From assembly GCA_037200925.1 (NCBI GenBank), contig JBBCGO010000001.1, forward strand, positions 760,235 to 824,234: a stretch of 64,000 bases of DNA, in the 5' to 3' direction. The DNA comes from Candidatus Doudnabacteria bacterium (GTDB lineage Bacteria; Patescibacteriota; Doudnabacteria; UBA920; O2-02-FULL-48-8). Below the pieces are notes generated by a model. The model searched no databases. It saw only the letters and a program-made list of their open reading frames with translations, and was not told the origin of the DNA. Shown one piece after another: positions 4,442 through 33,943 of the stretch. Both the position numbers and the translations under genes were made by a program. Each line of letters starts with the position of its first letter. Positions within the stretch are counted from its first letter, which is position 1.

Positions 4442-4443
4442 AT

Positions 4444-5884: not shown

Positions 5885-5887
5885 TTT

Positions 5888-8769: not shown

Positions 8770-8829
8770 TTGACTGGAAAGTGAATTTAGAATAAATCCC
8801 GATGCTTGAGCAACGGGGTTTGTCATATT

Positions 8830-9588
8830 ATGACGCTACTATTTATTTTTATTTTCGGATTGATTGTCGGCAGTTTTTTGAATGTTGTGATTTTTCGGCT
8901 TGCTTCCGGCGAATCTTTTTTATTTGCCCGTTCTCATTGCCGCAGCTGTAAAAAGGAACTGCAGGCCAAGGATTTGATCCCAGTGTTTAGTTTTTTATAT
9001 TTGCGCGGCCGATGCCGGTATTGCGCCGCTGCAATTTCCAGGCAATATCCGGTTGTTGAACTGGCCACAGGGTTAATTTTTGTTTTGTTCGCCTTAAAGT
9101 TTCAAATGGTTTTCAGTTGGGTTTTTGCACTAAATATAATTTTCGCCTGTTTTCTGCTGGTGATAGCAGTGTATGATTTTAACCATTATCTGATCCTGGA
9201 TAAGGTTTTGCTGCCGGGTTTGGTCCTGGTTCTTCTTTATAACATTCTTCAAGGCTGGCCGGTCTTTTGGGCAGGCTTGCTTTCCGGGGCAGGGTTTGCA
9301 GGATTTTTTCTTGCGCAGTACCTGATCTCGCGGGGTAAATGGATCGGATTAGGCGATGTAAAATTAGGTTTCGTTTTGGGGAACCTGGCCGGCTGGCCAA
9401 TGAGTATTTTAGTTTTGATCTTAGCTTATGGGTCAGGCGCAGTTGTGGGAATAGCCTTGATCCTAATGGGACGCAAAAAATTCGGCTCTAAGTTGCCCTT
9501 TGGGATATTTTTGAGCTTGTCTGCTATAATAGTAATGCTGGCAGGGAACCCGATCATGACCTGGTATCTTAGATTGATCGGACTATAA
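8830..9588 (+). CDS. pilD: Prepilin peptidase PilD (A24 family)
   Basis: Polytopic membrane protein with an N-terminal zinc-binding 'CRSCKK...CRYC' box. The listed ORF begins at TTG 8806; an ATG at 8830 is preferred. Confidence 0.8.
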   Translation: MTLLFIFIFGLIVGSFLNVVIFRLASGESFLFARSHCRSCKKELQAKDLIPVFSFLYLRGRCRYCAAAISRQYPVVELATGLIFVLFALKFQMVFSWVFALNIIFACFLLVIAVYDFNHYLILDKVLLPGLVLVLLYNILQGWPVFWAGLLSGAGFAGFFLAQYLISRGKWIGLGDVKLGFVLGNLAGWPMSILVLILAYGSGAVVGIALILMGRKKFGSKLPFGIFLSLSAIIVMLAGNPIMTWYLRLIGL

Positions 9589-9601: not shown

Positions 9602-10222
9602 ATGAAACTTAAATACATAAAAAAGAATAAGCCTACAGACCACAGGTTACACGCTACAAGTTATGGCTTCACCCTGATTGAGCTGATGGTGGTGCTTTTT
9701 ATAACCACAATGATCGCAGGGATCAGTGTGGCTAATTTCCGGGCTGCTGAAAAACAGAAACAAGCGGTGATAGCCGGCGATACGGTAGTTAATGCCATAA
9801 GAAACGCCCAGAATTTTACCCTCACGGGTAAAAATACGAATAACACGGATGCAACTTGCCGTGTGCCGCAGTATTACTATATTACTTTTAATTATTCGGG
9901 CGCCATTGTTTTATCCGCTGTCCACAACAACAACAGCGCGGGCACATGCAGTTCGGCTCCTGATACTATTGAAACTTATCCTTTGCCGATCAATACCAGG
10001 ATCAAAGCAAGCGGCCTGGTATTGGACGGAGCCATTGCCAGTTCTTCTATATCATTTATGTTCATGCCGCCGTTTGGCGTCCTGACTGCAGGTAAGGATA
10101 TCGGAACGATCAATGCCACTACTACTGCTGCTTTTACCACGGCGACGATAAGCGTGGAAACATTAGAAGGGTCGGCCAGCAAGACCGTAACTATTGATGG
10201 AATAGCGGGCAAGATTCAGTAA
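9602..10222 (+). CDS. Pseudopilin / minor pilin
   Basis: 'SYGFTLIELMVVLFITTMIAGIS' class III signal. 206 aa. Confidence 0.65.
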   Translation: MKLKYIKKNKPTDHRLHATSYGFTLIELMVVLFITTMIAGISVANFRAAEKQKQAVIAGDTVVNAIRNAQNFTLTGKNTNNTDATCRVPQYYYITFNYSGAIVLSAVHNNNSAGTCSSAPDTIETYPLPINTRIKASGLVLDGAIASSSISFMFMPPFGVLTAGKDIGTINATTTAAFTTATISVETLEGSASKTVTIDGIAGKIQ

Positions 10223-10227: not shown

Positions 10228-10959
10228 ATGTCAGCTTACTTAAAAAAATTTATTGAATATGCAGGCAAGTACGGATGGGTAATCAGCATCATATTGAGTG
10301 TTGCTGCTTTGGGATTCAGCGTATACAATTTACGTGTTTTGAAAATCAAGATTACTCAGCAAAATTCGCAGGCAGCAGCTGCGCCAGCTCCAGGAGGGGT
10401 GGCGGGGATATCAGTTGATAAGTTATTGGCGGGCATGAGCGGCAGCGAGCCTGTGCTCGGAGATAAAAACGCGCCGGTCACTATGTATGAGTTTGCCGAT
10501 TTCCAATGTCCTTTCTGCAAAAGATTTTTTGACAGCAGCCTGCCTGAGCTGAAGCAGAAATATGTTGATACCGGTAAGGTCAAGGTTATTTTCGTCAATG
10601 TGGCATTTTTAGGACAGGAATCCAAAGACGCGGCTGAAGCCGCCAAGTGCGCCTCTGACCAGGGTCAATTTTGGCCCTATCATGACAGTTTGTATGACAA
10701 CCAAAGCGGCGAAAACCAGGGAACTTTCAGTGCCGCCAAACTCCAAAGCCTGGCGAAGAACCTGCACCTTAACTTAAATGATTTTAACCAGTGCACCGCC
10801 AGCCACAAATATCAAAAAGCCGTGAGCGATGAAACTGACCTGGCAAACCAAAACGGCGTTTCCAGCACGCCCACTTTTTTAATTAACGGCCAGCAAATCA
10901 TCGGAGCCCAGCCGACAGCAACATTTGAACAAAAGCTTGATGATCTTTTAAAAAATTAA
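10228..10959 (+). CDS. DsbA-like thiol:disulfide oxidoreductase (membrane-anchored thioredoxin fold)
   Basis: N-terminal TM anchor and a 'CPFC' active site within a thioredoxin-like context ('FADFQCPFCKRFF'). Confidence 0.75.
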   Translation: MSAYLKKFIEYAGKYGWVISIILSVAALGFSVYNLRVLKIKITQQNSQAAAAPAPGGVAGISVDKLLAGMSGSEPVLGDKNAPVTMYEFADFQCPFCKRFFDSSLPELKQKYVDTGKVKVIFVNVAFLGQESKDAAEAAKCASDQGQFWPYHDSLYDNQSGENQGTFSAAKLQSLAKNLHLNLNDFNQCTASHKYQKAVSDETDLANQNGVSSTPTFLINGQQIIGAQPTATFEQKLDDLLKN

Positions 10960-11798
10960 TGTCCCAATCCGTAAGCCTAACTGTTGCATTTTTAGGCGGA
11001 GTACTGACATTGCTCCCTGCTTGCGGGCCGGCTCTATTGCCGGCATTTTTTGGTTTTGTGTTCACTGAAAAACAAAAATTGGTTCTGGCCACGGTGTTTT
11101 TCGGTCTGGGGTTTGCCTTAGTTTTTTTTCCTTTCAGCTATGGGTTTAATTTTTTGGTCCATTTGTTGATTTATTCGCGGGAGGTTTTATTTGGCATCAT
11201 AGGCTGGCTGCTCGTAATTTTCGGTCTATTGTCGCTGTTTAATTTTTATTTGCCTTTATACTCAGGCGGAATCAGGCCTGTTCACAAGTTTTGGCAAACT
11301 TTTTTTTTGGGCATTATTTTTGGCCTGACAAGCAGCACTTGCACGGCTCCCATTTACGGGGCGATTTTGTCGTTGAATAGCTTGAGCTCAGGCTTTGTGC
11401 AAGTCAACCTGCTGCTCTTAAGCTTTATGGCCGGCATGATCATTCCGCTTTTGATCCTGGCAGGTCTTGTCGAACATTATGGATTGTTAAATTTAAGCAT
11501 CTTTCAAAAACCTGTTCTGAGAATAAATGTGGGCCATCGCATTTTTTCATTCTTTCTCGGCAATCTGCTGGCAGCGCTGGTTTTTATCCCTCTGGGATTT
11601 GCTTTTATCGTCTCAAAAGGCGGCGCACCATTCCTGTCCTTTGCCCAGTCAACGGGAATTTTGATAAAGTTTGAAACTTTGAACGAATCCCTGATCACTT
11701 ACAATGCGGCCCATCCCCATCTTGATTACTGGGTTTTGGGCTTATTGCTGGCATTTTGCCTGTTGCTGTGGTTAAATACATACAGGAATAAAGAGTGA
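10959..11798 (+). CDS. ccdA: CcdA/DsbD-family thiol-disulfide transporter
   Basis: Polytopic membrane protein with conserved Cys in TM1 ('LPACGPA') and 'TSSTCTAPIYG'. Start overlaps the DsbA stop (ATGA-type coupling). Confidence 0.6.
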   Translation: MSQSVSLTVAFLGGVLTLLPACGPALLPAFFGFVFTEKQKLVLATVFFGLGFALVFFPFSYGFNFLVHLLIYSREVLFGIIGWLLVIFGLLSLFNFYLPLYSGGIRPVHKFWQTFFLGIIFGLTSSTCTAPIYGAILSLNSLSSGFVQVNLLLLSFMAGMIIPLLILAGLVEHYGLLNLSIFQKPVLRINVGHRIFSFFLGNLLAALVFIPLGFAFIVSKGGAPFLSFAQSTGILIKFETLNESLITYNAAHPHLDYWVLGLLLAFCLLLWLNTYRNKE

Positions 11799-12826: not shown

Positions 12827-12830
12827 TTTT

Positions 12831-13997
12831 ATGATCGAATTTCGGCAAAAATTGAAAAAACCTAACTTTGTTTATTTCTGGGGGTTCTTAGCCGTTGTCT
12901 TCCTTGTCCTAGGATCGATCTTGTTTTTTGCGTCCAGGCTTATTATCAGGAGAAACGGACCGCTTCCGGTTTCGACAGCCGATGAGATCATTCAGATCAA
13001 AGATACCACGATTCTTACCGAACAAGTTGCATGGTACAAAAAATTGATCGAAAGGGTAGGCCCGTCCGAAGCTCAGGACGATCTGGTTAATTCCGGGCTG
13101 CCGTTTACCGGGCAAACCCATTTACTCAATCATACAGTGGGTGATTATCTGTACGAGAAGTTCGGGGTTACAGGGCTTTCGCAATGCAAAGAATATTTTC
13201 TGGCCTCCTGCTATCACGGATTTATACTGGACGCGATCGCCACGGGCGGCATTCCGGAAGTGGCGAAGGTCATGAATGCCTGCAGGACTGAGGGTGTCAG
13301 CACCGTTTTTCCGCAATGCTCCCACGCCGTGGGACATGGATTTCTCGCATTTGTCGGTTATAAAAATTTAACCCAATCACTGACCATGTGCGATGACATG
13401 GTTAAAAGCGTTCCCGATTTTCCGACCTTTAACTGCCAGGACGGCGTGTTTATGGAAAATATCTGGGCTCTGCACGACGGATCTGTTTCTGCCGATCGCT
13501 GGGTCAAACCTTCAGATCCGGTTTATCCCTGTGACGATTCCAGGATCGGCCAGAAATATTTGCTGGCCTGCTGGTCGAACCAGCCGTCGCTGATGTACCA
13601 GCAGTTTAGCGGCGATCTGAAAAAAGTGGCTGGCCAGTGCGGTATCTTGCAGCAAACCGACTTGCGGCAGATGTGTTACAACGGGCTTGCCAGGCAGATC
13701 CATCCGATCGCCGCCGGGAATCTGGATCAGACCTTTGACCTTTGCGGTTTGCTCGGGCGGACTTGGACCGATTACTGCATTCTGGTCAATGACACGGCTT
13801 CTTTTTCAGTCGGGGACAGGTCATTGCCGTTTGCGATCTGCGCCCGGATTGACGCTGCCAGCAAGGACAGCTGTTATCAACAACTGCTAGGCATGATCAA
13901 TGCCTATGCCAAAAGCTCCTCTGAACAGACTGATTGGTGCAATAAGATCGACAGTCCGACATGGAAAGACCAGTGTCAGGCGCAGCAAAGACAATAA
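12831..13997 (+). CDS. Cys/His-rich exported protein, paralog B (unknown function)
   Basis: Start taken at 'MIEFRQ' (the listed ORF begins upstream at 12693, overlapping paralog A). Same Cys/His motif set: 'SCYHG', 'CSHAVGHG', 'CDD', 'CQDGVFME'. Confidence 0.6.
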   Translation: MIEFRQKLKKPNFVYFWGFLAVVFLVLGSILFFASRLIIRRNGPLPVSTADEIIQIKDTTILTEQVAWYKKLIERVGPSEAQDDLVNSGLPFTGQTHLLNHTVGDYLYEKFGVTGLSQCKEYFLASCYHGFILDAIATGGIPEVAKVMNACRTEGVSTVFPQCSHAVGHGFLAFVGYKNLTQSLTMCDDMVKSVPDFPTFNCQDGVFMENIWALHDGSVSADRWVKPSDPVYPCDDSRIGQKYLLACWSNQPSLMYQQFSGDLKKVAGQCGILQQTDLRQMCYNGLARQIHPIAAGNLDQTFDLCGLLGRTWTDYCILVNDTASFSVGDRSLPFAICARIDAASKDSCYQQLLGMINAYAKSSSEQTDWCNKIDSPTWKDQCQAQQRQ

Positions 13998-14110
13998 AAT
14001 ATCTTTCTCCTTGACAGATTTACTTTTATGTTGTTTAATTTTATGAAATTGCTTGAGTTTTGAATATAACTGATAATAAGTGTTATAATATAAAATATAA
14101 ACAAACCATT

Positions 14111-14818
14111 ATGAGAAACAGAAATAAAAACTATAGGCAAAGCGGGCAAACCCTTATCGAAACCATCGTAGCGATTTTCATTTTGACCACAGCGCTAACC
14201 GCGGGGCTGGGGCTGGCAATATATGCTTTTTCCAGCGCAACTACGTCACAAAACGAAATTGTTGCCTCTAATTTGGCCCGCGAAGGTGTTGAAATCGTGC
14301 GGATGATGCGCGATTCCAACTGGCTGGCAGCTGATGCCAAGGATCCTACGAGTGTACAGGGCTGGGGATTGCAGTCATGTGCTGACCTCATTGGCGGCAG
14401 GCTTTGCTACCCCAAAGTCTATCAGGCTGTTCCCGGATACAATACCTATAATCTTACTTCCGGTAATCAGCGGGCGATTTTTGCCCCTAACCCTACGACT
14501 TCCACCTGGTCGTTAGATGCTACGGCTAATTATGATCTGTATCTGCAGGCCGACGGCACTTATTCCTCCACAGCCAACGGTCAGGCCGTTTTTGCCCGCA
14601 TGATTAACATCAGATTTAATCCTCCGGACGCTGGCACTCCTTCGGTCCCCGCTAATACTTATACTTTTCAGAATCCGGAGATGATCGTAAAATCCGTTGT
14701 GGCATGGCGGGGAAAAAGCTGCCCGTCCTTTAGTTCCAATCAAGATCTTTTGGCATTATCTTCGTCCTGCAAGGTCGTGGTCGAGGAGCATATGACCAAT
14801 TGGAAGGACTATAGGTAG
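14111..14818 (+). CDS. Minor pilin-like protein (prepilin-type N-terminus)
   Basis: 'RQSGQTLIETIVAIFILTTAL' class III signal after a short basic leader. The listed ORF start at 14060 is probably too far upstream. Confidence 0.6.
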   Translation: MRNRNKNYRQSGQTLIETIVAIFILTTALTAGLGLAIYAFSSATTSQNEIVASNLAREGVEIVRMMRDSNWLAADAKDPTSVQGWGLQSCADLIGGRLCYPKVYQAVPGYNTYNLTSGNQRAIFAPNPTTSTWSLDATANYDLYLQADGTYSSTANGQAVFARMINIRFNPPDAGTPSVPANTYTFQNPEMIVKSVVAWRGKSCPSFSSNQDLLALSSSCKVVVEEHMTNWKDYR

Positions 14819-14820: not shown

Positions 14821-15414
14821 ATGCCAAATAACAAATTCCAAATACCGAATAAAATCTCAAATTTTAAAATTGGGAAGTCTCAATCGGCGTTCACGCTGAT
14901 TGAGACGGTAGTCGCCACGGCTGTGTTCGCTTTTGTCGTGACTTCAATTCTGGGTGTATATATATCAACCATCCAGCTGGACCGCAAAAGCCGGGCGCAG
15001 AGAGCCGTGGCCCAGGACGCCCGGTTCATCATGGAGTTCTTAGCCAAAGAGGTCCGCAACGGGACCATCAATTACCCAAGTTACGCATCAAGCACGGTTT
15101 CCGGCACCAGTGACTTATATATCCAGAACCAGGCCAACGTAGTTGAGCACTTTTTTTTGAGCGGAACGAACATGCTCATAAACAAAGGCGGGGCCAACGC
15201 TAATATGAATTCCAGCGGCACAAAGGTTACCAATCTGCTGTTTTATATCCAGCCCACAACCGATCCCTATACACCGGCCAAGAGCGCTAACGATCAGCCT
15301 CATGTGACAGTGGTCCTGGATCTGCAGTCAAACTACGGAACTGCGGCCAAAGACACCGTGACCATGAGCCTGCAGGACTCGTTTGCTATCAGTCGGTATA
15401 CAAGCAGGAGATGA
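14821..15414 (+). CDS. Short pilin-like protein; pilin domain 100% identical to the N-terminus of the downstream giant gene
   Basis: 'SAFTLIETVVATAVFAF' prepilin signal. nt 14907-15388 are identical to 15536-16017 (tandem duplication). May be a functional short pilin or a duplication remnant. Confidence 0.5.
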   Translation: MPNNKFQIPNKISNFKIGKSQSAFTLIETVVATAVFAFVVTSILGVYISTIQLDRKSRAQRAVAQDARFIMEFLAKEVRNGTINYPSYASSTVSGTSDLYIQNQANVVEHFFLSGTNMLINKGGANANMNSSGTKVTNLLFYIQPTTDPYTPAKSANDQPHVTVVLDLQSNYGTAAKDTVTMSLQDSFAISRYTSRR

Positions 15415-15473: not shown

Positions 15474-18400
15474 ATGAATCTAAAACCTATAACCCGTAAC
15501 CTGAGATCTGATTCAGGCTTTACCCTGATCGAAGCGGTAGTCGCCACGGCTGTGTTCGCTTTTGTCGTGACTTCAATTCTGGGTGTATATATATCAACCA
15601 TCCAGCTGGACCGCAAAAGCCGGGCGCAGAGAGCCGTGGCCCAGGACGCCCGGTTCATCATGGAGTTCTTAGCCAAAGAGGTCCGCAACGGGACCATCAA
15701 TTACCCAAGTTACGCATCAAGCACGGTTTCCGGCACCAGTGACTTATATATCCAGAACCAGGCCAACGTAGTTGAGCACTTTTTTTTGAGCGGAACGAAC
15801 ATGCTCATAAACAAAGGCGGGGCCAACGCTAATATGAATTCCAGCGGCACAAAGGTTACCAATCTGCTGTTTTATATCCAGCCCACAACCGATCCCTATA
15901 CACCGGCCAAGAGCGCTAACGATCAGCCTCATGTGACAGTGGTCCTGGATCTGCAGTCAAACTACGGAACTGCGGCCAAAGACACCGTGACCATGAGCCT
16001 GCAGGACTCGTTTGCTACAAGGCAATATCCGCTCCGGGTGTTTGGCGCAGGTTATACCACTCCTCTCTATACCACCCCTACTTACCCGACTCCGGCTTCA
16101 GGATTCGCCACCGGCGGCGCTGTCAGTACCAGTGGTTCAAATACTGTCCGTACTTTTAGTACAAGCGACACACTTACGGTTTTCAGCGCAGGGACGATTC
16201 AATACCTGATAGTTGCCGGCGGCGGCGGCGGCGGACAAGCTGACGGCGCCGGTGGTGGTGCCGGAGGAGTGATTACAGGACAGATGTCAATTGCGGCGGG
16301 TACCTACCCTATAATTGTGGGCGGCGGGGGCACAGGTGCCACAGGCAGTTGTCTAATTTCTGGAGACACTGGTAGCTCAGGGTCAAACTCGAGTTTTCAT
16401 GGTCTCACTGCTATCGCCGGCGGCGGCGGCGGCAGTTATGGTACCAGCGGTCTCAATGGCGGCTCAGGCGGCGGGGGCGGCGCAGGCAATGGTGCTGCCA
16501 CTGCCGGGCTTGGAACACCTAACCAAGGACATGACGGCATGAACTCAAACAATCCTCCTTTTGGCGGCGGCGGCGGCGGTGCTACGGCGGTTGGTGGTGG
16601 TTGGACTGCTGCAGCCGGCATCGGTGGCGCTGGAATACCTTCCGATATCACCGGCGCGACTGTTTACTACGGCGGCGGCGGCGGTGGTGGTGCTAATAGT
16701 GCCAACGGATCTGGCGGTACCGGAGGAGTTGGCGGCGGCGGCACTGGCGGTACCGGCGGCGGCGGCGGCAATGGCATCAACGGTACAGGCGGCGGCGGCG
16801 GAGGAGGAGGCCGCATCAATACCGTTCCTAATCCTACCTGCAGCGGCGGCGGCACTGGCGGCAATGGCGTTGTACTCATTCGCTATCTGACAAATCCCGA
16901 TATTACTCCTCCGGTTGTCACAGCTTTTGATGTTCAGCCAAAATTTACTTCAGGCGCGGTTACCGCAACTTTCACAACCACTGACTCTGGAGGCTCGCAT
17001 CTGAAGGATGCTGAGCTTTGGCGGGCCACTGCCCGATCCAACTGCACGACTACAGATGACTCCGGCTGTAATGATTGGGCTGCTGTGGAAAGCGAAGTCG
17101 CCGTGAGCGACGTTGTATGGACAAGTTTGGTAAATACGACTGCTACCGGAAATACTCTGACAAAAACCGGCGGAGCGGTCGGTACCAATGATGCGGGAGC
17201 CGTTTCGACTCGGACCATCGACTCCGGTGACGGTTATGTGGAATTCACTTACAACGGCAGCGGTTTTGGCGGCTTTGTGGATGGGGGATTAAGCAATGGA
17301 AATACTGACCAGAGTGTTGCCGATATAGATTTTGGAATAAAGCTGCAGCAAAGTAATTTTTTCTATGCTGAGGAAAATGGAGTGCCTAAAGGCTCTGCCG
17401 GCTCTTATGTTGTCGGGGATGTATTCAGAATCGCAGTTGTAGGAGGCGTAGTCCAATATTCGAGGAACGGGACGGTATTTTATACCAGCGTTCAATCGCC
17501 GACTTACCCCTTGTTATTTGATACATCCATAAAAGAACTTAATAGTTCAATCGCTAATGCCAAGATAGCCTCAACAGTCTCAGATTCCTGGACCGGAAAT
17601 CTTACCGATACTCCTCCGGCCAATATTGCCGAAGTTTACGGACTGCGTGTCCATGACAATGCGGGAAACACAGGATTCCAGCAGACGAAGATAATGGTCG
17701 GCGAAGTTACCCCGCCTGTCGTCACAGCGTTTGACGTTCAGCCCAGAACTACTTCAGGTTCAGTTACCGCCACATTTACGGCCACTGATTCCGGAGGCTC
17801 GCATCTGAAGAATGCCGAGCTTTGGCGCGCTACTGCCCGAACCAACTGCACGATTTCGGATAATTCCGGCTGCAATGATTGGGCTGTTGCGGCAAACACA
17901 ACCATTCCCGCCAATAATGTTGTATGGACAAGCGCGGTAAATGCGACTGCGACAGGAAACACTCTGACAAAAACCGGCGGAACGGATGGAACCTATGACG
18001 CAGGAGCTGTTTCGACCCAGACCATCGGCACTGATGGCGGTTATGTGGAATTCACTTACGCGAGCGGTACCGGCTTGATGGCCGGCGGATTAAGCAATGG
18101 AAATACTGATCAGAGTGATGCCGATATAGATTTTGGAATAAAGCTGCAACAAAGTAGTTTTTTCTATGTTTATGAAAAAGGAGTACAAAAAGGCAGTACA
18201 GGCACTTATGCTGTCGGGGATGTATTCAGAATCGCAGTTGTAGGAGGCGTAGTCCAATATTCAAGGAACGGGACGGTATTTTATACCAGCGTTCAATCGC
18301 CGACTTACCCCTTGTTATTTGATACATCCATAGGCGGCAGTAATAATTCAATCTCTAATGCCAAGATTTATTATCCCTCCTTAGATTCCTGGTCGGGTAC

Positions 18401-21400
18401 CATGACTGATACTCCTCCCACCGATACCTCATACATCTATGGCGTGCACGTTTATGACTATTCGGGAAACTTTGGACTGGAACCTGCCAAGATCTTTGTG
18501 AGCTCAACCTCATACGGTGTCACAACTTCCGGTTTTTATACCGTATATACGTTTACGATAAGCGGCACGTTTACGGTTGCATCTCCGCAAAGTGTCCAAG
18601 TTCTGGTGGTGGGCGGAGGCGGAGGCGGCAGCGGCAGTGCTAGCGGTGGCGGTGGCGGAGGAGGAGGAGCCGGCGGTTATAATTACAATGCGAATTATAG
18701 TGTGACTCCAGGTTCATACTCTGTCACAGTAGGTGCCGGAGGTGCTGGAGGCGTTGCCAATGTCCGTGCCAATGCACCAAATGGTTCTAATTCAAGTTTC
18801 GGAACCATCACCTCTATCGGTGGTGGTGGCGGCAATGGTTGGACTGATCCGAAAGCTTCTAATGGCGGTTCGGGTGGCGGAGCGGAATGGGGTGATACAG
18901 TCGGATTAGGCACAGCCGGCCAGGGGAACAATGGCGGTCTTGCCTCTACTACTGCTCCTGCCTCCGGCGGCGGAGGCGGCGGAGGCGCAGGTGCGGTTGG
19001 AGGAGCCGGCTCTAGCACAAATGGCGGAAATGGGGGAATTGGTCTTGCAAATTCCATCACCGGTACGTCTGTCTACTATGCCGGCGGCGGCGGCGGCGGC
19101 TCAACCAATGCTGCAGGATCTGCAAGCGCCGGCGGCCTTGGCGGCGGCGGCGTCGGAGGAAAAGTTTCTGCCGGGTCGCCCGGAACTGCCGGCACAGGCG
19201 GAGGCGGCGGTTCAGGCTCGAATGGGCTTGCCGGCGGCGCAGGAGGCAGCGGTATTGTGATCATCAGTTTTCTTACAACCCCGGATACGACGCTTCCTGT
19301 AGTATCTGCTTTTGACGTACAACCCAGGACAGCATCAAGTTCTGTTACTGCCACATTCACTGCCACTGATAGCGGAGGCTCGCATCTGCAGAAAGCAAAT
19401 CTAATGAGAGCGGTTTACGACGCTTCCACTTGTACAACCACGGTCAATACCGGTTGTGTATGGTCTGTTGCATCAACTATCACCGCTCCAGCGGCTGCAG
19501 ATACTTGGAACGCCGGATCATCACCGCCGGCAATGTTTTCTGAAATTCCTCCGGCCGCATCTTATATCTATGGCATTCAAGTCTATGACAATGCGGGAAA
19601 CTTTGGTCTTGAGCCTGCAAAGATCAAAGTTGATGCATTCGGATTATCAGCCTCCGGCGGTACCATTACAACCTCAGGCGGAGTTACGACTGCGACATTC
19701 ACAACCAGCGGTACATTTACGGTTAGCGGTTCCGGGACAATTGATTATCTTGTGGTCGGCGGCGGCGGAGCCGGTGGTGCGGGCGGCGGTGTTGGCGGCG
19801 GCGGCGGCGGAGCCGGTGGCGTGTTCAGCGGTTCCATGGCCGTTACTGCTCAAGCCTACCCTATAACAATTGGTGCCGGCGGTGCCGGAGGAGGAGCGGC
19901 CGTAGGCCCCAAGGGCTCCAATACAGTATTTGGAGCTATCACAGCTCTCGGCGGCGGCGGCGGCGGTAATTATTGTAATAATGCTACAAATGGCGCTTCA
20001 GGCGGAGGCGGCTCTTATAACTGTACTGCTGGAACGGGTACGGCAGGTCAAGGGCATGATGGCGGAGCGGGTAGTACTGACTCGCCATACGGCGGCGGCG
20101 GCGGCGGCGGGGTTAGCGGCAGTGGCGGAGCCGGCAGCAATACAAACGGCGGTGCCGGCGGAGCCGGTATTGCAAGTTCTATCACGGGTTCGCCTGTCTT
20201 CTATGGCGGCGGCGGCGGGGGCAGTATCTCAAGCGGTCCTCCTGGTCCTGGCGGCTCAGGCGGCGGGGGAGCTGGCGGAAGCGGCGCTAGTAACGGAACA
20301 AATGCGACCCCCAACACGGGCGGCGGCGGCGGTTCAGGCAGCGGTGCCGGCGGCAGCGGCGTAGTTATTATTCGTTATATTTCACCTGTAGTGGAGGGCA
20401 TTGCCCCGGTCGTTTCAGCTTTCGATGTGCAGCCGAGAAGCGGTTCAAATTTAGCTACTGCAACGTTCACAGCCACTGATGCCGGAGGCTCGCATCTACA
20501 GAAAGCTGACCTCTGGAGAGCTCCTTATGATGCCAGTGTTTGCAATCCTGCGGGCAGTACTGCCGGATGTAATTTCGGTGCATCTCCGGTAGATTCAGTC
20601 AATGCTCCGCCCGCCTCGGATGGCCCATGGAACGGCACCTTGCATGATTATGCCGTCGGGTCTTTGGTCTATGGCCTCCATGTATATGACAATTCAGGCA
20701 ATACCGGATTTGAGCCCGCAAAGATCAAAGTTGACGGTCATGCGGCATTCGCCACAGGCGGCACTATTACAACTTCTGGTATTTATGCGATCCATACTTT
20801 TACCTCAAGCGGTACATTCACGGTTATTGGATCGTCCCCCGCATCAGTTGATTATCTTGTGATCGGCGGCGGCGGAGCGGGCGGTGGTGCCGGCAATCCG
20901 GGCGGCGGCGGCGGTGGTGCCGGCGGCATGCGTAACGGTTCGCTGGCAGTTAGCCCTCAATCCTACACAGTAACAATCGGCGGAGGAGGTGCGAGCGTCG
21001 GCGCGAATGGTTCTAATTCTGTATTTGGATCTATCACTGCTCTCGGTGGCGGTGGCGGTGGCACTTATGGTTCTGCTGCTGCAAGTGGCGGGTCGGGTGG
21101 TGGCGGCTCTTATACCTATTCCGTTGGAAATGGTACGTCCGGTCAGGGTAACAATGGCGGATCAGGTACTACTAATTCTCCTTACGGAGCCGGCGGCGGC
21201 GGCGGCGCGGGTGCTGTTGGAGGAGCCGGCAGCGCTTCTGTTGGCGGAACCGGCGGAGCCGGTGCTTCGAGTACCATTTCCGGCGCAACTGTCTTCTATG
21301 CCGGCGGCGGCGGAGGTAATGTCTCAAGCGGTACTTCGGGTCCTGGCGGCGCCGGCGGCGGCGGAGCGGGCGGCCTCGGCGGCGCCGGAACAAATGGGAC

Positions 21401-23357
21401 CGCCAATACAGGAGGAGGCGGCGGCGGCGGCAGCGGTTCCGGCGGCAGCGGCATTGTTATTATTCGTTATCTTATACCGGTTCTAGAAGCCACTCCTCCG
21501 GTCGTTTCAGCCTTTGATGTGCAGCCGAGAAATGGTTCAAACGCAGTTACCGCAACTTTCACAGCCACTGATGCCGGAGGATCGCATCTTCTGAAAGCTG
21601 ACCTCTGGAAAGCTGTCTATGATGTCAGCAACTGCAATCCTGCGGGCAGCACTGCCGGCTGTAACTTCGGAGCAACTCCGGTAAACTCAGTCAATGCTCC
21701 GGCTGGCTCGGATGGCCCATGGAGCAGCTCTATGCTTGATAATGCCGCGGGGTCTGTGGTCTATGGCCTGCATGTTTATGACAATTCTGGCAATACCGGA
21801 TTTGAGCCGGCAAAGATCAGAGTTGATGCCCCGGCAGCATTCGCCACAGGTGGCACTATTACAAGTTCTGGCTTCAATGAGATCCATACCTTTACGTCGA
21901 GTGGGACTTTCACGCCCAGCGGTTCCGGGTCGATTCAATATCTGATAGTCGGCGGCGGAGGCGCAGGAGGCAGCGGCAGCGGCGGCACGGGCGGCGGCGG
22001 CGGAGGCGGGGGAGGAGTGCAAACCGGCACGCTGGCAGTTACTGCTCAACCCTACACTGTAACAATCGGCGGCGGCGGGGCAGGAGGTGCCAGCTCTGGA
22101 GCGAACGGTTCTAATTCAGTATTTGCATCTATCACTGCTACCGGCGGCGGCGGCGGCGCTACTTATGGAGTTGCTCCCGGAAACGGCGGTTCCGGCGGCG
22201 GCGGCGATTATAACGGAGTTGCGGGAACCGGTACCTCGGGTCAGGGTAACAATGGCGGATTGGGTTCCACTACTTCTACTTACGGCGGCGGTGGTGGTGG
22301 AGGAGGTGGTACTGCTGGAGGAGCCGGCAGTGCTACTGTTGGCGGAACCGGCGGCGCGGGTTTTTCGAGTTCCATTTCCGGCTCAGCTATCTTCTATGCC
22401 GGCGGCGGTGGAGGAGGCATTGTAAGCGGCACTCCCGGTCTTGGCGGAGGCGGCGGAGGAGGCGCGGGCGGAGCCGCTGGAAACGGTACCAGCGCTACAC
22501 CCAACACCGGCGGCGGAGGAGGCGCGGGCGGAAGCTCATCAGGACTTGGAGCTGCCGGCGGTTCCGGAATTGTTATTATCCGGTATAATCCTAGTCCTAG
22601 TGCATTTTTGCTGACCTCAGGCTCCTCTTGGACGGTTCCTGCTGGAGTTACAAGTATACAAACATGGGCAATCGGCGGCGGCGGTGGGGCAGGAGGAGCC
22701 GGACCCGCAGATGCCTCAACTGGTAGCGGTGGTGGAGCGGGAGGAGTAGCCTATAGTGCTTTTACTGTATCTCCTGGGGCGACTGTTTCTTATAGTTTGG
22801 GCAGCGCAGGTACAGGGGGTTCCGGCTGCGCCGGCGGTTCGACCGGTACGGCCGGCGGAAATACTACTGTGACAGTAGGCGGAGTAACCATCACCGGAAA
22901 TGGCGGCGGGGCGGGCGGCTGCAATACGGGAGTCGGCGGTACGGGTGGAAGTTTCAGCCCTAGCGGTGCAGCTGGCGCAGCCGGTCAAGGTGTAACTGGC
23001 GAAGGAGGGGGAGGATACGGCGGCGCAATAGGCGGCGGCATTGGTACCGCAGGAGGCAATGCCGGAAGTACAGGCGGTCAAGCTGTGGATGTTTCGGGCT
23101 CGAATGCGGTAATATCTGCGGCAGGATTCAGTACTTCGTCTCCTGGTGTTGGAGGCGGCACTGCTAGTACCCCTGCAAACGCGGTGAATGGAACGAGCGC
23201 AACGGGAGTAGGCGCGGGCGGGGGAGGAGCAGGTTGGTATGGGGGAACCGGAGGAAACGGTCTGTATGGAGGAGGCGGAGCAGGCGCTGCGGGATATCAA
23301 ACTAGTACGACGGGCGGAGCGGGCGGAGCCGGAGCAGTTCTTATAACATTCCCTTAA
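15474..23357 (+). CDS. Giant (2,627 aa) pilin-leader-fused, glycine-rich repeat surface protein (putative pilus-associated adhesin)
   Basis: N-terminal prepilin signal 'GFTLIEAVVATAVF' plus a ~165-aa pilin domain. About 6 repeats follow, each an Ig-like module 'PPVV(T/S)AFDVQPR...TATFTATD(S/A)GGSHL' plus a Gly-rich module 'SGTFTV...YLVVGGGGAGG...'. Two copies of a ~120-aa lectin-like segment ('GYVEFTY...DIDFGIKLQQS...VFRIAVVGGVVQYSRNGTVFYT'). Local GC is far above the flanking DNA. Confidence 0.75.
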   Translation: MNLKPITRNLRSDSGFTLIEAVVATAVFAFVVTSILGVYISTIQLDRKSRAQRAVAQDARFIMEFLAKEVRNGTINYPSYASSTVSGTSDLYIQNQANVVEHFFLSGTNMLINKGGANANMNSSGTKVTNLLFYIQPTTDPYTPAKSANDQPHVTVVLDLQSNYGTAAKDTVTMSLQDSFATRQYPLRVFGAGYTTPLYTTPTYPTPASGFATGGAVSTSGSNTVRTFSTSDTLTVFSAGTIQYLIVAGGGGGGQADGAGGGAGGVITGQMSIAAGTYPIIVGGGGTGATGSCLISGDTGSSGSNSSFHGLTAIAGGGGGSYGTSGLNGGSGGGGGAGNGAATAGLGTPNQGHDGMNSNNPPFGGGGGGATAVGGGWTAAAGIGGAGIPSDITGATVYYGGGGGGGANSANGSGGTGGVGGGGTGGTGGGGGNGINGTGGGGGGGGRINTVPNPTCSGGGTGGNGVVLIRYLTNPDITPPVVTAFDVQPKFTSGAVTATFTTTDSGGSHLKDAELWRATARSNCTTTDDSGCNDWAAVESEVAVSDVVWTSLVNTTATGNTLTKTGGAVGTNDAGAVSTRTIDSGDGYVEFTYNGSGFGGFVDGGLSNGNTDQSVADIDFGIKLQQSNFFYAEENGVPKGSAGSYVVGDVFRIAVVGGVVQYSRNGTVFYTSVQSPTYPLLFDTSIKELNSSIANAKIASTVSDSWTGNLTDTPPANIAEVYGLRVHDNAGNTGFQQTKIMVGEVTPPVVTAFDVQPRTTSGSVTATFTATDSGGSHLKNAELWRATARTNCTISDNSGCNDWAVAANTTIPANNVVWTSAVNATATGNTLTKTGGTDGTYDAGAVSTQTIGTDGGYVEFTYASGTGLMAGGLSNGNTDQSDADIDFGIKLQQSSFFYVYEKGVQKGSTGTYAVGDVFRIAVVGGVVQYSRNGTVFYTSVQSPTYPLLFDTSIGGSNNSISNAKIYYPSLDSWSGTMTDTPPTDTSYIYGVHVYDYSGNFGLEPAKIFVSSTSYGVTTSGFYTVYTFTISGTFTVASPQSVQVLVVGGGGGGSGSASGGGGGGGGAGGYNYNANYSVTPGSYSVTVGAGGAGGVANVRANAPNGSNSSFGTITSIGGGGGNGWTDPKASNGGSGGGAEWGDTVGLGTAGQGNNGGLASTTAPASGGGGGGGAGAVGGAGSSTNGGNGGIGLANSITGTSVYYAGGGGGGSTNAAGSASAGGLGGGGVGGKVSAGSPGTAGTGGGGGSGSNGLAGGAGGSGIVIISFLTTPDTTLPVVSAFDVQPRTASSSVTATFTATDSGGSHLQKANLMRAVYDASTCTTTVNTGCVWSVASTITAPAAADTWNAGSSPPAMFSEIPPAASYIYGIQVYDNAGNFGLEPAKIKVDAFGLSASGGTITTSGGVTTATFTTSGTFTVSGSGTIDYLVVGGGGAGGAGGGVGGGGGGAGGVFSGSMAVTAQAYPITIGAGGAGGGAAVGPKGSNTVFGAITALGGGGGGNYCNNATNGASGGGGSYNCTAGTGTAGQGHDGGAGSTDSPYGGGGGGGVSGSGGAGSNTNGGAGGAGIASSITGSPVFYGGGGGGSISSGPPGPGGSGGGGAGGSGASNGTNATPNTGGGGGSGSGAGGSGVVIIRYISPVVEGIAPVVSAFDVQPRSGSNLATATFTATDAGGSHLQKADLWRAPYDASVCNPAGSTAGCNFGASPVDSVNAPPASDGPWNGTLHDYAVGSLVYGLHVYDNSGNTGFEPAKIKVDGHAAFATGGTITTSGIYAIHTFTSSGTFTVIGSSPASVDYLVIGGGGAGGGAGNPGGGGGGAGGMRNGSLAVSPQSYTVTIGGGGASVGANGSNSVFGSITALGGGGGGTYGSAAASGGSGGGGSYTYSVGNGTSGQGNNGGSGTTNSPYGAGGGGGAGAVGGAGSASVGGTGGAGASSTISGATVFYAGGGGGNVSSGTSGPGGAGGGGAGGLGGAGTNGTANTGGGGGGGSGSGGSGIVIIRYLIPVLEATPPVVSAFDVQPRNGSNAVTATFTATDAGGSHLLKADLWKAVYDVSNCNPAGSTAGCNFGATPVNSVNAPAGSDGPWSSSMLDNAAGSVVYGLHVYDNSGNTGFEPAKIRVDAPAAFATGGTITSSGFNEIHTFTSSGTFTPSGSGSIQYLIVGGGGAGGSGSGGTGGGGGGGGGVQTGTLAVTAQPYTVTIGGGGAGGASSGANGSNSVFASITATGGGGGATYGVAPGNGGSGGGGDYNGVAGTGTSGQGNNGGLGSTTSTYGGGGGGGGGTAGGAGSATVGGTGGAGFSSSISGSAIFYAGGGGGGIVSGTPGLGGGGGGGAGGAAGNGTSATPNTGGGGGAGGSSSGLGAAGGSGIVIIRYNPSPSAFLLTSGSSWTVPAGVTSIQTWAIGGGGGAGGAGPADASTGSGGGAGGVAYSAFTVSPGATVSYSLGSAGTGGSGCAGGSTGTAGGNTTVTVGGVTITGNGGGAGGCNTGVGGTGGSFSPSGAAGAAGQGVTGEGGGGYGGAIGGGIGTAGGNAGSTGGQAVDVSGSNAVISAAGFSTSSPGVGGGTASTPANAVNGTSATGVGAGGGGAGWYGGTGGNGLYGGGGAGAAGYQTSTTGGAGGAGAVLITFP

Positions 23358-23420
23358 TCTTGTTCCGGATACAATCATTATTCGGTATTTTACTCCATAA
23401 CTGATATAATATTGTTATAT

Positions 23421-24182
23421 ATGAAGCTAGATTTGACTTTTAGGAAAATTCAACCAAAAAGAAGCCAAGAAGGTGTTACCCTGCTGATCTCGGTTTTGGT
23501 CATGTCGGGTTTGGCTTTGATCAGTTTGTCGGTTGCGGCTTTCGCCATTCAGGAATTGCGAGCATCCAGAGCCGTGATAGCCACGGAACCTGCGATCTCA
23601 GCTGCGGAGTCAGGCGGCGAAGAAGGCTTATGGGCGATCAAACGTTTACCAGCTTCATCTCTGGTAAATTGCGCCACCGGTCAAACCCCGCTAACCTTAA
23701 GCAACGGTTCTTTTGATACTTTGTGCAAAACGTACGGCAGTGCAGTCATAAAACTGCAAGCCAATGTCCCTTTTATTTTTTATCTATATGATCCGGGTAA
23801 TATCAACGGCGATATGGACCTGCTGGCTTATCCCTATACTAATTTGACGGTCATTGACCAATCAGGAACTAACAATGTTTCCGTAAATATCGTGCGCATA
23901 GATCAAAGCGCCACTCCGGTTGCCGGGGTAACGGTACCACCCGGTGCAACGCAGGTAATTAATATTATTAGCGTAGCGCCAGGCTCTGAAGGACGGATGA
24001 AAGTGACTTTGTTGTCCGTCAGTGATGCGACCGTGAACTTGAATACCAATCAGGGCATGCCGAATTTCCCGACAATCAATTCGGGAGGCTGTGCCGCCAG
24101 AACTGCCGTGGCTGATTGCGATACCTCAAACTCAGAATTATTCAGCCGCAGGATCAATATTACCGTGCCGCAGCCGCAATAA
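23421..24182 (+). CDS. PilX-like minor pilin / pilus-associated protein
   Basis: Hydrophobic prepilin-like N-terminus 'QEGVTLLISVLVMSGLALISL' without Glu5. Last gene of the pilus block. Confidence 0.45.
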   Translation: MKLDLTFRKIQPKRSQEGVTLLISVLVMSGLALISLSVAAFAIQELRASRAVIATEPAISAAESGGEEGLWAIKRLPASSLVNCATGQTPLTLSNGSFDTLCKTYGSAVIKLQANVPFIFYLYDPGNINGDMDLLAYPYTNLTVIDQSGTNNVSVNIVRIDQSATPVAGVTVPPGATQVINIISVAPGSEGRMKVTLLSVSDATVNLNTNQGMPNFPTINSGGCAARTAVADCDTSNSELFSRRINITVPQPQ

Positions 24183-24188: not shown

Positions 24189-24217
24189 TTATGAAAACCG
24201 CCCTCAACGGGCGGTTT
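24189..24217 (+). terminator. Rho-independent terminator after the pilus block
   Basis: Hairpin 'CCGCCCtcaaCGGGCGG' followed by TTTTGTT. Confidence 0.6.
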
Positions 24218-24251
24218 TGTTATTATATTTTTAAATTCTATATTCTGCCTG

Positions 24252-29955: not shown

Positions 29956-33321
<3,366 letters not shown>

Positions 33322-33880: not shown

Positions 33881-33943
33881 GCAATTGGTTCGTGCGACGA
33901 ACGGTAACTGACCCCCGCCAATTTCAAGGAGAAATAAGTTTGT

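What the first reader, a model, noticed from the sequence alone, without database searches (positions are those of the whole stretch)
15474..23357. 2,627-aa pilin-leader-fused glycine-rich repeat protein inside the type IV pilus locus
The N-terminus is a bona fide class III (prepilin) signal plus a pilin-like domain. It is followed by about six repeats of an Ig-like module (PPVV.AFDVQPR...TATFTATD.GGSHL), Gly-rich low-complexity modules (PE-PGRS-like GGxGG strings after a conserved 'SGTFTV...YLVVGGGG' anchor) and two lectin-like inserts. This implies a giant pilus-presented adhesin processed by PilD at 8830. Local GC is far above genome background because of GGC codons. Such pilin-fused giant proteins are poorly described and may mediate host-cell or epibiont attachment.
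Basis: partly seen in the sequence, partly recalled or inferred. Interest (0 to 1): 0.7.

Follow-up and report, generated by a model that had tools for sequence, protein, structure and literature searches.

The report
Giant pilin carrying phage-fibre-like tips
A tiny uncultured bacterium (Candidatus Doudnabacteria) encodes a 2,627-residue type IV pilus subunit that carries six domains of the kind phages use at their tail-fibre tips, plus two lectin-like domains, so it is probably a multi-headed grappling adhesin and an extreme case of the known "modular pilin" design.

Summary
The ORF (15474-23357, +, 2,627 aa) is real and sits in a type IV pilus locus of a Candidatus Doudnabacteria MAG. Its first 188 residues belong to a conserved minor-pilin family whose G|FTLIE prepilin motif is nearly invariant in 54 homologues. 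PilD is encoded at 8806-9588.

Almost all homologues are stand-alone ~190-aa pilins. Here the giant gene is inserted between such a pilin (14821-15414) and a PilX-like pilin. The two neighbouring pilin modules share a 483-nt block that is 100% identical.

The fusion is unlikely to be an artefact. A 56%-identical relative is fused at the same junction, and other relatives carry the same cargo on two other minor pilins.

Best reading: a PilD-processed modular minor pilin that acts as a multivalent pilus adhesin. It is a new, extreme variant of a known kind. Processing, display and ligand are inferred.

The parts
15474..23357 (+). Giant modular minor pilin ORF: 2,627 aa; mature form about 2,612 aa, 242.5 kDa, pI 4.65. 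NCBI MEJ0021803.1.
15474..15518 (+). Class III (prepilin) leader peptide MNLKPITRNLRSDSG. Predicted PilD cleavage lies between G15 and F16; Glu5 of the mature protein is present.
15474..16037 (+). Pilin module (aa 1-188), ending at ..YPLR, exactly where stand-alone homologues stop (..YPSRQ*).
16038..16088 (+). First 17 residues (aa 189-205) of the Pro/Thr/Tyr-rich linker VFGAGYTTPLYTTPTYPTPASG. It has no start codon or signal peptide of its own. Its last five residues fall in the segment mapped as GRD1.
16089..16892 (+). Glycine-rich domain 1 (Gly_rich_2, PF21722).
16893..17705 (+). Ig-like module 1 with a nested ConA/SPRY-like jelly-roll insert (insert about 17112-17567).
17706..18506 (+). 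Ig-like module 2 with a nested ConA/SPRY-like insert (insert about 17919-18368). It is 72% identical to module 1.
18507..19277 (+). Glycine-rich domain 2.
19278..19637 (+). Ig-like module 3 (no insert; conserved Cys pair).
19638..20384 (+). Glycine-rich domain 3.
20385..20738 (+). Ig-like module 4.
20739..21476 (+). [not shown]
21477..21830 (+). Ig-like module 5.
21831..22592 (+). Glycine-rich domain 5.
22593..23354 (+). Divergent C-terminal glycine-rich domain 6: 43-46% identity to the others; Gly_rich_2 22.9 bits over the full profile length. The same subtype ends P0343 and occurs in P0340.
14821..15414 (+). Stand-alone twin pilin (197 aa, MEJ0021802.1). Its leader ends in Ala (KSQSA|FTLIET) instead of the family's Gly. 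Its C-end ..RYTSRR lacks the nearly invariant (>=90% of 54 homologues) Pro of ..YPSR.
14906..15388 (+). Copy 1 of the 483-nt block that is 100% identical to 15535-16017 (offset 629 nt), with sharp boundaries. This is the signature of gene conversion or very recent duplication.
15535..16017 (+). Copy 2 of the 483-nt identical block (giant aa 21-182).
8806..9588 (+). Prepilin peptidase PilD (A24_N_bact + Peptidase_A24).
9602..10222 (+). GspH-like minor pilin directly after PilD. In relative L088 this slot carries the 1,084-aa Ig/lectin pilin P0355.
14060..14818 (+). PilV-like minor pilin (G|QTLIE), the conserved upstream partner in the operon.
23412..24182 (+). PilX/GspK-like minor pilin (G|VTLLI, no Glu5), the conserved downstream partner. 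In relatives L002 and L086 this protein carries the Ig/lectin/GRD cargo instead.
24194..24218 (+). Best terminator-like hairpin of the region, just after the PilX-like gene. It suggests the minor-pilin genes, including the giant, form one transcription unit.
   Evidence: consensus match only; counts were not above shuffles
10228..10959 (+). DsbA-like thioredoxin inside the pilus locus. It fits oxidative folding of the 8 intramodule Cys pairs of the giant.

Best explanation
The ORF encodes a modular type IV minor pilin.

Proposed steps (all inferred):
- The protein inserts into the membrane by its class III signal and the cargo is exported.
- The PilD encoded in the locus cleaves after Gly15.
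- The 173-residue mature pilin module (Glu5, hydrophobic alpha1) docks into the minor-pilin complex that primes and caps the pilus. It uses the slot of the conserved middle minor pilin, of which it is a tandem paralogue with an identical core.
- A Pro/Thr/Tyr linker then holds a roughly 2,420-residue string outside the filament.

Cargo (shown): five disulfide-containing Ig-like spacers, two ConA/SPRY-like jelly rolls nested in the first two spacers, and six glycine-rich domains. The glycine-rich domains are homologous to the tail-fibre domain of cyanophage Pam3 that its authors assign to host recognition.

Proposed function (inferred): a multivalent, multi-specificity adhesin. It would bind surface glycans or proteins of a host or partner cell, and PilT-driven retraction would pull the small cell onto its target.

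Proposed origin (inferred): the gene arose by duplication or insertion next to the resident pilin, and gene conversion keeps the two pilin cores identical. The same cargo set moves between different minor-pilin carriers in related organisms.
For: Pilin identity:
- G|FTLIE motif; N_methyl at threshold.
- 98 homologues, nearly all 180-200-aa pilins named PulG/PilW/prepilin by their sources.
- The motif is nearly invariant in 54 aligned homologues.
- PilD and a complete PilMNO-B-T-C set are in the locus.

Operon position:
- The order PilV-like / this pilin / PilX-like / LysM(-) / ligase is conserved in dozens of Doudnabacteria-like loci.
- The giant is an extra gene in that series.

The fusion is real:
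- P0357 is 56% identical in the pilin module and continues at the same junction (..YPSR|VVG..) into Big_7, Ig-like and GRD modules.
- There is no start codon or signal peptide between the pilin module and GRD1, and no nearby stop in the other frames.
- Small pilin+Gly_rich_2 proteins recur (P0242, P0287, P0295, P0322, P0334).

Cargo belongs with pili:
- The same Ig/lectin/GRD modules sit on the PilX-like pilin in L002 and in P0340. P0340 is 1,633 aa and was recovered in two independent assemblies.
- They also sit on the post-PilD pilin in P0355/L088.

Binding function:
- GRD AF2 model: pLDDT 96.4.
- 238 viral structure matches, TM up to 0.92; phrog_2295 E=5e-51.
- The authors of the Pam3 gp24 study assign the GRD to receptor recognition (PMC9608196).

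Extracytoplasmic location:
- 16 Cys fall as pairs within modules, and a DsbA-like gene is in the locus.

Precedent:
- S. sanguinis PilB/PilC modular pilins (PMC8179133).
- TM7x PilX2, whose deletion lowers host binding (PMC11623550).
Against: - There is no experimental evidence for cleavage, assembly or binding.
- The giant protein is on record in only one assembly. An exact search for the fusion junction in JGI metagenomes found nothing.
- The same contig has at least one homopolymer indel: rpoD is split by an extra G. The sequence is therefore not error-free.
- A perfect 483-nt tandem repeat could in principle be a polishing or assembly artefact.
- N_methyl is only 0.2 bits above its cut-off.
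- The pilin fold of the module was not modelled. The Ig-like part of the second model has low confidence (pLDDT about 60).
- It is untested whether a 242-kDa subunit can be extracted from the membrane and carried by a pilus.
- None of the 80 species-representative loci has this cargo, so it is rare.
- Ligand and partner organism are unknown.
Confidence: 0.65

Rival explanations
1. It is a cell-surface fibrillar adhesin that uses the pilin-like N-terminus only as a signal and membrane anchor. In this reading it is processed or unprocessed and stays in the membrane, like a pseudopilin stub. The cargo is displayed on the cell body, not at a pilus tip.
For: - The cargo is very large at 242 kDa.
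- The same Ig-like and GRD modules also occur on non-pilin proteins with an ordinary Sec signal (P0343) or a TM/protease N-terminus (P0339). The cargo therefore works without a pilus.
- The stand-alone twin (14821-15414) could fill the structural slot by itself.
Against: - The pilin module is complete and kept identical to a bona fide minor pilin over 161 residues. Such conservation is not needed for a mere anchor.
- Glu5 and Gly-1 are retained, whereas the short twin deviates.
- The cargo has been grafted on three different minor pilins of the same operon type.
- Bulky modular pilins are shown to be assembled into pili in S. sanguinis (PMC8179133).
Confidence: 0.2
2. The fusion, the tandem duplication, or both are artefacts of assembly or polishing. 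Examples would be two strain alleles joined in series, or paralogues homogenised by read mis-mapping. No single 2,627-aa pilin exists in the cell.
For: - The 483-nt block is 100% identical with sharp edges.
- There is only one source assembly.
- The contig contains a homopolymer error in rpoD.
- Most homologues are unfused.
Against: - A homologue 56% identical in the pilin module shows the same fusion at the same residue.
- A 59-nt unique spacer and two different leaders connect the two copies.
- The 7.9-kb frame is open, and every module matches a family or a confident model.
- Internal repeats are only 62-83% identical.
- No indel near the junction would create a stop or a separate start.
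- Indel errors break long ORFs rather than create them.
Confidence: 0.07
3. The protein is pilus-associated or surface-associated but not an attachment adhesin. The phage-type glycine-rich domains might act as decoys or sensors for phages, as a structural sheath, or in capture of substrates or DNA.
For: - GRDs are mostly known from viruses, and the function of Gly_rich_2 in bacteria is unstudied (no papers found).
- SPRY-like folds often bind proteins rather than sugars.
Against: - Where the domain has been studied or assigned a role (Pam3 gp24, S16 gp38 and ALK, per PMC9608196), it is described as a ligand- or receptor-recognition domain.
- No enzymatic domain was detected in the ORF.
- Co-occurrence with lectin-like and Ig-like spacers is the usual make-up of adhesins and fibres.
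Confidence: 0.08

Closest known systems
Modular type IV pilins, e.g. Streptococcus sanguinis PilB (pilin + vWA) and PilC (pilin + ConA-like lectin) (Raynaud et al. 2021, PMC8179133; PMC9934059)
   Same: An N-terminal class III signal and small pilin module, a short linker, and grafted binding module(s). It is a minor pilin encoded in the pilus locus. A ConA-like lectin-fold module is present. The organism probably lacks an outer membrane (general knowledge of this bacterial group) and no secretin gene was seen in the window.
   Different: About 5 times the size of PilB (about 50 kDa processed). It has 13 cargo modules rather than 1-2. The cargo type (Gly_rich_2) is not among the frequent architectures quoted from that survey. 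That survey's extreme case was 860 aa. This gene also has a cargo-free twin next to it with an identical core.
Saccharibacteria TM7x minor pilins PilX1 (beta-jelly-roll) and PilX2 (beta-propeller) (PMC11623550)
   Same: Patescibacteria T4P minor pilins with C-terminal accessory binding domains that are proposed as tip adhesins for episymbiosis. PilX2 loss lowers host binding.
   Different: A different carrier pilin (the middle pilin rather than PilX) and different cargo. The size is far larger, and there are no experimental data for Doudnabacteria.
Phage tail-fibre tip glycine-rich domains: cyanophage Pam3 gp24 (7ypx), Salmonella phage S16 gp38, mycobacteriophage Bxb1 gp33/gp29 (9d93)
   Different: It is not part of a virion and no phage genes lie nearby. 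Six copies sit in tandem on one chain rather than as one tip on a trimeric fibre. The N-terminal attachment is a pilin, not a baseplate or fibre adaptor. No tail-fibre chaperone gene was seen.
ALK/LTK extracellular glycine-rich domain (7lrz, 7lir)
   Different: A distant eukaryotic receptor kinase context. Identity is only about 21%.
PilY1/PilC tip adhesins of T4aP
   Same: A large adhesin presented by the minor-pilin tip complex, with variable N-terminal binding modules.
   Different: PilY1 is not a pilin. It docks by a C-terminal beta-propeller, and no such domain was detected here. Here the carrier is itself a pilin.
Mycobacterial PE-PGRS proteins
   Same: Gly-rich GGxGG strings.
   Different: No PE domain, no Pfam hit to that family, a different organism and secretion route. 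The domain here is Pfam Gly_rich_2 with a TNF-like sandwich.

Membership tests
Type IV pilin / class III signal peptide proteins (PF07963, IPR012902) | Short basic leader ending in Gly, followed by F/M-T-L-I-E with Glu at +5 | tested here: met
   The N-terminus is MNLKPITRNLRSDSG|FTLIE. G15, F16, T17, L18 and I19 are nearly invariant and E20 is invariant in 54 homologues.
Type IV pilin / class III signal peptide proteins (PF07963, IPR012902) | Pfam N_methyl at or above the gathering score | tested here: met
   21.4 bits against a 21.2 cut-off. This is marginal. Many homologues carry a precomputed PF07963 hit.
Type IV pilin / class III signal peptide proteins (PF07963, IPR012902) | A stretch of about 20 hydrophobic residues (alpha1N) after the cleavage site | tested here: met
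   FTLIEAVVATAVFAFVVTSILGVYI, read directly from the sequence.
Type IV pilin / class III signal peptide proteins (PF07963, IPR012902) | Cognate prepilin peptidase and assembly machinery encoded in the genome | tested here: met
   PilD at 8806-9588. PilM/N/O, PilB, PilT and PilC are at 5-7090.
Type IV pilin / class III signal peptide proteins (PF07963, IPR012902) | Globular alpha/beta pilin fold of the head domain | not tested
   No structure was predicted for aa 1-205 because both jobs went to cargo modules. A profile search against PDB sequences found nothing.
Type IV pilin / class III signal peptide proteins (PF07963, IPR012902) | Actual cleavage, N-methylation and incorporation into filaments | not testable with these tools
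   Requires proteomics or biochemistry.
Modular pilins (sensu Raynaud et al. 2021) | A pilin module joined by a linker to one or more domains that are not specific to T4P biology | tested here: met
   The family's stand-alone members end at ..YPSRQ*. Here a P/T/Y linker continues into Gly_rich_2, Ig-like and ConA/SPRY-like modules.
Gly_rich_2 (PF21722) | HMM score above the gathering threshold | tested here: met
   295.5 bits against 24.3, five stretches. The sixth copy alone scores 22.9 bits, just below threshold but over the full profile length.
Gly_rich_2 (PF21722) | Fold of a beta-sandwich plus Gly-rich extended-strand lattice, as in phage fibre tips | tested here: met
   [not shown]
Phage tail fibre / receptor-binding protein | Encoded among virion genes, with an N-terminal domain that attaches to the tail or baseplate | tested here: not met
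   The neighbours are pilus, DsbA, LysM and ligase genes. The N-terminus is a pilin.
ConA-like lectin / SPRY superfamily (the two inserts) | Jelly-roll beta-sandwich fold | tested here: met
   [not shown]
ConA-like lectin / SPRY superfamily (the two inserts) | Demonstrated carbohydrate (or protein) ligand site | not testable with these tools
   Sequence identity to the structural matches is only 8-17%, so no site can be transferred.
Bacterial Ig-like domains (Big_13 / Big_7 type) for the five spacers | Match to an Ig-like family, or a confident Ig-like model | tested here: inconclusive
   The window's own copies have no Pfam hit. Eleven of 25 family members hit Big_13 weakly, best E 1.6e-4. 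The AF2 model is all-beta but has pLDDT about 60.
PE-PGRS | N-terminal PE domain plus PGRS repeats | tested here: not met
   No PE family hit at E<=0.1. The N-terminus is a pilin.
PilY1/PilC tip adhesin | C-terminal PilY1 beta-propeller | tested here: not met
   No such Pfam or NCBIfam hit.

The most novel reading that the evidence does not exclude
An episymbiotic-type ultrasmall bacterium may have co-opted phage receptor-binding tips as its own host-recognition device. It arrays six diverged copies plus two lectin-like domains on a retractile pilus.

The cargo would behave as a plug-and-play cassette that moves between three different minor-pilin carriers in related organisms. Here the carrier is kept compatible with the tip complex by gene conversion with a cargo-free twin. 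Pili with and without the adhesin could then be built from the same slot.

If true, this is a phage-like solution to host range in Patescibacteria. It would also give sequence-readable host-specificity determinants.
Probability: 0.3. Interest if true: 0.75.

Novelty: new variant of a known kind. Interest (0 to 1): 0.55.

Why it matters
How ultrasmall Patescibacteria find and hold their hosts is largely unknown. Type IV pili are the main suspects, and experiments so far come from cultivated Saccharibacteria (the TM7x study, PMC11623550).

This locus offers a concrete candidate host-recognition molecule in an uncultured lineage. Its binding modules are homologous to phage receptor-binding tips, so tools developed for phage host-range prediction and engineering could be applied to it.

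It also stretches the modular-pilin concept to a subunit of about 242 kDa with 13 cargo modules. Finally, it shows cargo exchange among minor-pilin carriers and concerted evolution of a carrier with its cargo-free twin.

Tried and rejected
Searches that led nowhere:
- A single-protein scan of genome contigs found no relative. The profile scan worked.
- Exact look-ups of P0001 and P0357 found no contig. The context of the independently fused relative therefore could not be read.
- An exact search for the pilin-linker junction in JGI metagenomes gave 0 hits.
- The profile of the pilin family against PDB sequences gave nothing useful. The GRD profile gave only weak Pam3 hits by sequence.
- No papers mention PF21722 or Gly_rich_2.

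Readings rejected:
- PE-PGRS: no PE domain is present.
- Prophage tail fibre: no phage genes are nearby.
- PilY1-type adhesin: there is no propeller.
- Diversity-generating retroelement target: no reverse transcriptase was found among the ORFs scanned in the window.
- Fusion created by an indel near the pilin stop: the other frames have no nearby stop, and the 22-aa linker has no start or signal.
- Repeat collapse inside the ORF: the repeats are 62-83% identical.
- High GC as a sign of foreign high-GC DNA: GC3 of the cargo is lower than the neighbours. This hints, weakly, at acquisition from a lower-GC relative instead.
Full report
**Observation.** The window holds one uninterrupted ORF at 15474-23357 on the + strand, 2,627 aa. 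The window contains no Ns. An exact-sequence look-up places the window on the 964,444-bp contig JBBCBH010000057.1 of GCA_037975565.1, a Candidatus Doudnabacteria MAG. NCBI calls the product 'type II secretion system protein' (MEJ0021803.1).

**The pilus locus.** The surrounding genes form a complete type IV pilus locus:
- PilM, PilN and PilO, an unknown 110-aa protein, PilB, a receiver-domain protein, PilT and PilC.
- Three GspG-like pilins, then PilD at 8806-9588 (A24_N_bact + Peptidase_A24).
- A GspH-like pilin, a DsbA-like protein, and three proteins with no family hit.
- A PilV-like pilin (14060-14818), a 197-aa pilin (14821-15414), the giant ORF, and a PilX-like pilin (23412-24182).

No secretin gene was seen among the ORFs scanned in the window.

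**Anatomy of the protein.** The N-terminus is MNLKPITRNLRSDSG|FTLIEAVVATAVFAFVVTSIL. It has a basic leader, Gly at -1, Glu at +5 and a hydrophobic helix. Pfam N_methyl is just above threshold (21.4 against 21.2 bits).

The rest divides cleanly:
- Pilin module, aa 1-188.
- P/T/Y linker, to about aa 210.
- GRD1 (segment mapped as aa 206-473).
- Ig1 with insert (474-744) and Ig2 with insert (745-1011).
- GRD2, Ig3, GRD3, Ig4, GRD4, Ig5, GRD5.
- A divergent GRD6 that ends the protein.

So there are five Ig-like modules, six glycine-rich domains and two inserts. Module copies are 43-78% identical at protein level and 62-83% at DNA level. The longest exact internal DNA repeat is 69 nt.

The elevated GC (0.57) comes from first and second codon positions of Gly and Ala codons (GC2 0.65). 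GC3 of non-Gly codons in the cargo (0.38-0.47) is below that of the pilin module (0.61) and of neighbouring genes (0.56). The 16 cysteines fall in pairs within modules.

**The pilin module belongs to a conserved minor-pilin family.**
- A search with aa 1-205 found 98 relatives. Nearly all are 180-200 aa, and several are named prepilin, PulG, PilW or PulJ by their sources.
- In an alignment of 54 of them, the G|FTLIE motif is nearly invariant, with Glu invariant. The proteins end at ..YPSRQ*.
- The giant protein continues exactly there (..YPLR-VFGAGYTT..).

**The neighbourhood is conserved, and the giant is an insertion.**
- In relatives fetched by exact look-up and by a profile scan of species-representative genomes, most loci with enough flanking sequence share one order. 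That order is PilV-like pilin, this pilin, a PilX-like protein of about 250-300 aa, then in the close relatives examined a LysM gene on the other strand and DNA ligase.
- The window has the same series with the 7.9-kb gene added between the pilin and the PilX-like gene.
- None of the 80 representative loci carries the Ig-like, lectin-like or GRD modules.
- More distant Patescibacteria have 1,100-1,255-aa pilins in the same slot that did not match these cargo modules (L055, L069, L071, L082).

**A twin next door.** The 197-aa gene immediately upstream is a paralogue of the giant's pilin module.
- 483 nt (14906-15388 and 15535-16017, offset 629) are 100% identical, with sharp edges.
- The leaders differ (KSQSA|FTLIET against RSDSG|FTLIEA), as do the C-ends (..ISRYTSRR* against ..TRQYPLRV..).
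- The short copy, not the giant, deviates from the family at two conserved positions. It has Ala instead of Gly at -1, and Thr instead of the nearly invariant Pro of YPSR.
- The pattern is what gene conversion or a very recent duplication produces. I cannot exclude a polishing artefact.

**Is the fusion real?** I could not examine reads. Several indirect lines speak for it.
- A profile of the Ig-like module, searched against 1.84 billion representatives, returned P0357. Its pilin module is 56% identical to the window's. It continues at the same residue (..ATRNYPSR|VVG..) into two Big_7 domains, an Ig-like module and a GRD.
- Small pilin + Gly_rich_2 proteins of about 390-405 aa recur in metagenomes (P0242, P0287, P0295, P0322, P0334).
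- The 22-residue linker has no start codon or signal peptide, and the other frames have no nearby stop. A single indel therefore would not explain the fusion.
- The contig does contain a homopolymer error: rpoD at 43358-44585 is split by an extra G in a G run. Together with the contig length this suggests a long-read assembly. Such errors break ORFs rather than build a 7.9-kb one.

Against it, the exact protein is on record in only one assembly, and an exact junction search in JGI metagenomes found nothing.

**The cargo travels between pilin carriers.**
- In L002 and in P0340, the PilX-like pilin of the same operon carries the Ig-like, lectin-like and GRD6-type modules. P0340 is 1,633 aa, named PilX by JGI, and was recovered in two independent assemblies (locus L086). 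In these loci the middle pilin is plain.
- In P0355/L088, the pilin directly after PilD carries two Ig-like modules with nested lectin-like inserts, the same nesting as here.
- The modules also occur on non-pilin surface proteins: P0343 with a Sec-type signal, and P0339 with a metalloprotease.

Grafting of one cargo set on three different minor pilins is the strongest comparative argument that the pilus presents it.

**What the modules are.**
- *Glycine-rich domain.* It is Pfam Gly_rich_2, with thousands of relatives. An AlphaFold2 model of GRD4 built on 86 sequences is highly confident (pLDDT 96.4, pTM 0.93).
- *Its spread in viruses.* Foldseek against predicted viral structures gives 238 matches at E<=0.001, with TM up to 0.92. 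The domain also matches phrog_2295 (E=5e-51).
- *Its role in Pam3 gp24.* The paper describes a TNF-like sandwich plus a lattice of glycine-rich strands that forms the distal part of the fibre. The authors hold it responsible for host-receptor recognition and propose that its variable distal tip determines specificity. The paper also relates the domain to S16 gp38 and to ALK (PMC9608196; see also PMC13243192).
- *Variation among the six copies.* It lies mainly in the non-Gly segments between the Gly runs.
- *The spacers.* They are all-beta with a conserved Cys pair. Family members hit Big_13 and Big_7 weakly, but the model is of low confidence there. 'Ig-like' is therefore probable, not shown.

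**Mechanism proposed.**
- *Shown:* a pilin-type N-terminus; the locus context; folded binding-type modules; homology of the GRD to phage fibre tips; recurrence of the architecture.
- *Inferred:* Sec-dependent insertion; cleavage by PilD after Gly15; docking of the pilin module in the minor-pilin priming and tip complex, in the slot of its twin. By gene order H-I/V-J/W-K/X this would be the GspJ/PilW-like position. Also inferred are display of a long beaded string with eight binding heads, multivalent binding to envelope glycans or proteins of a partner cell, and PilT-driven retraction.

The DsbA-like gene in the locus fits oxidative folding outside the cell. The best terminator-like hairpin lies after the PilX-like gene (24194-24218), which is consistent with one minor-pilin transcription unit. 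That scan was not above its shuffled controls.

**Comparison with what is known.** Modular pilins are an established class. A survey found more than 1,200 proteins in 264 architectures, many from Patescibacteria, and the quoted extreme was 860 aa (PMC8179133). In cultivated Saccharibacteria, the minor pilins PilX1 and PilX2 carry accessory domains, and PilX2 is needed for efficient host binding (PMC11623550).

The present protein fits that class on every testable feature. It differs in four ways:
- scale (2,627 aa, 13 cargo modules);
- cargo (phage-type glycine-rich tips, for which I found no literature in a pilin context);
- the cargo-free twin with an identical core;
- evidence of cargo exchange among carriers.

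It is not a PE-PGRS protein, a PilY1-type adhesin or a prophage fibre, because defining features of each were tested and not met.

**Verdict.** I rate it a new, extreme variant of a known kind, with interest 0.55. The main open points are read-level confirmation of the tandem twin and the fusion, and any experimental evidence of processing, display and ligand.

Noticed in passing
window 14821-15414 versus 15474-16088: The tandem twin pilin shares a 483-nt block at 100% identity with the giant's pilin module. The short copy has Ala at -1 of the cleavage site and lacks the family's conserved Pro near the C-end.
   Followed up: yes
window 43358-44585: The rpoD (sigma-70) gene is split into two overlapping ORFs by one extra G in a G5 run (..AACTTGGGGGCTTCTGG..). 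This is probably a homopolymer sequencing error, so the contig is not indel-free.
   Followed up: partly
window 29955-34464: The 23S rRNA match spans 3,375 nt against a 2,925-nt model, so it has about 450 nt of insertion(s). A 100-nt tRNA-model hit at 33944-34043 was not called by ARAGORN. That hit and tRNA-Cys lie between 23S and 5S. No 16S rRNA is in the window.
   Followed up: no
window 10228-13997: Four genes sit inside the pilus locus between the post-PilD pilin and the minor pilins. They are a DsbA-like thioredoxin, a multi-pass membrane protein with a ..LLPACGPALLP.. motif (no family hit), and two Cys-rich proteins with no family hit. This may be an oxidative-folding set for the pilins.
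   Followed up: partly
window 58862-63461: A cytochrome bo3-type quinol oxidase operon is present (CyoA, CyoB, CyoC and a small ORF that was not scanned) plus heme o synthase. This is a notable respiratory element for a Patescibacteria genome.
   Followed up: no
window 54915-57164: An Rv1355c-family protein appears as two adjacent genes: a ThiF-like adenylyltransferase and an Acg/nitroreductase-like FMN oxidoreductase. They lie beside a PaaK-like ligase (53398-54930). The function is unknown.
   Followed up: no
window 47471-50700 (minus strand): A low-GC stretch (0.32 at 48-50 kb) holds four ORFs of 187-238 aa with no Pfam hits. It may be a foreign island.
   Followed up: no
window 44675-47329 (minus strand): An 884-aa protein has only weak hits (NPCBM_assoc; choice-of-anchor Z PGGG repeat at the C-end). 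It may be another surface protein.
   Followed up: no
window 7765-8265: A pilin-like protein with a T2SSG domain has a non-canonical N-terminal motif (..ELG|FISIESL..) and a long predicted leader. Its start codon is uncertain.
   Followed up: no
L055, L069, L071, L082 (match at about 10001 or 5473 in each locus): Peregrinibacteria, Gracilibacteria and other Patescibacteria carry pilins of 1,107-1,255 aa in the same operon slot. They did not match the Ig-like, lectin-like or GRD modules. Large modular pilins at this position seem recurrent.
   Followed up: no
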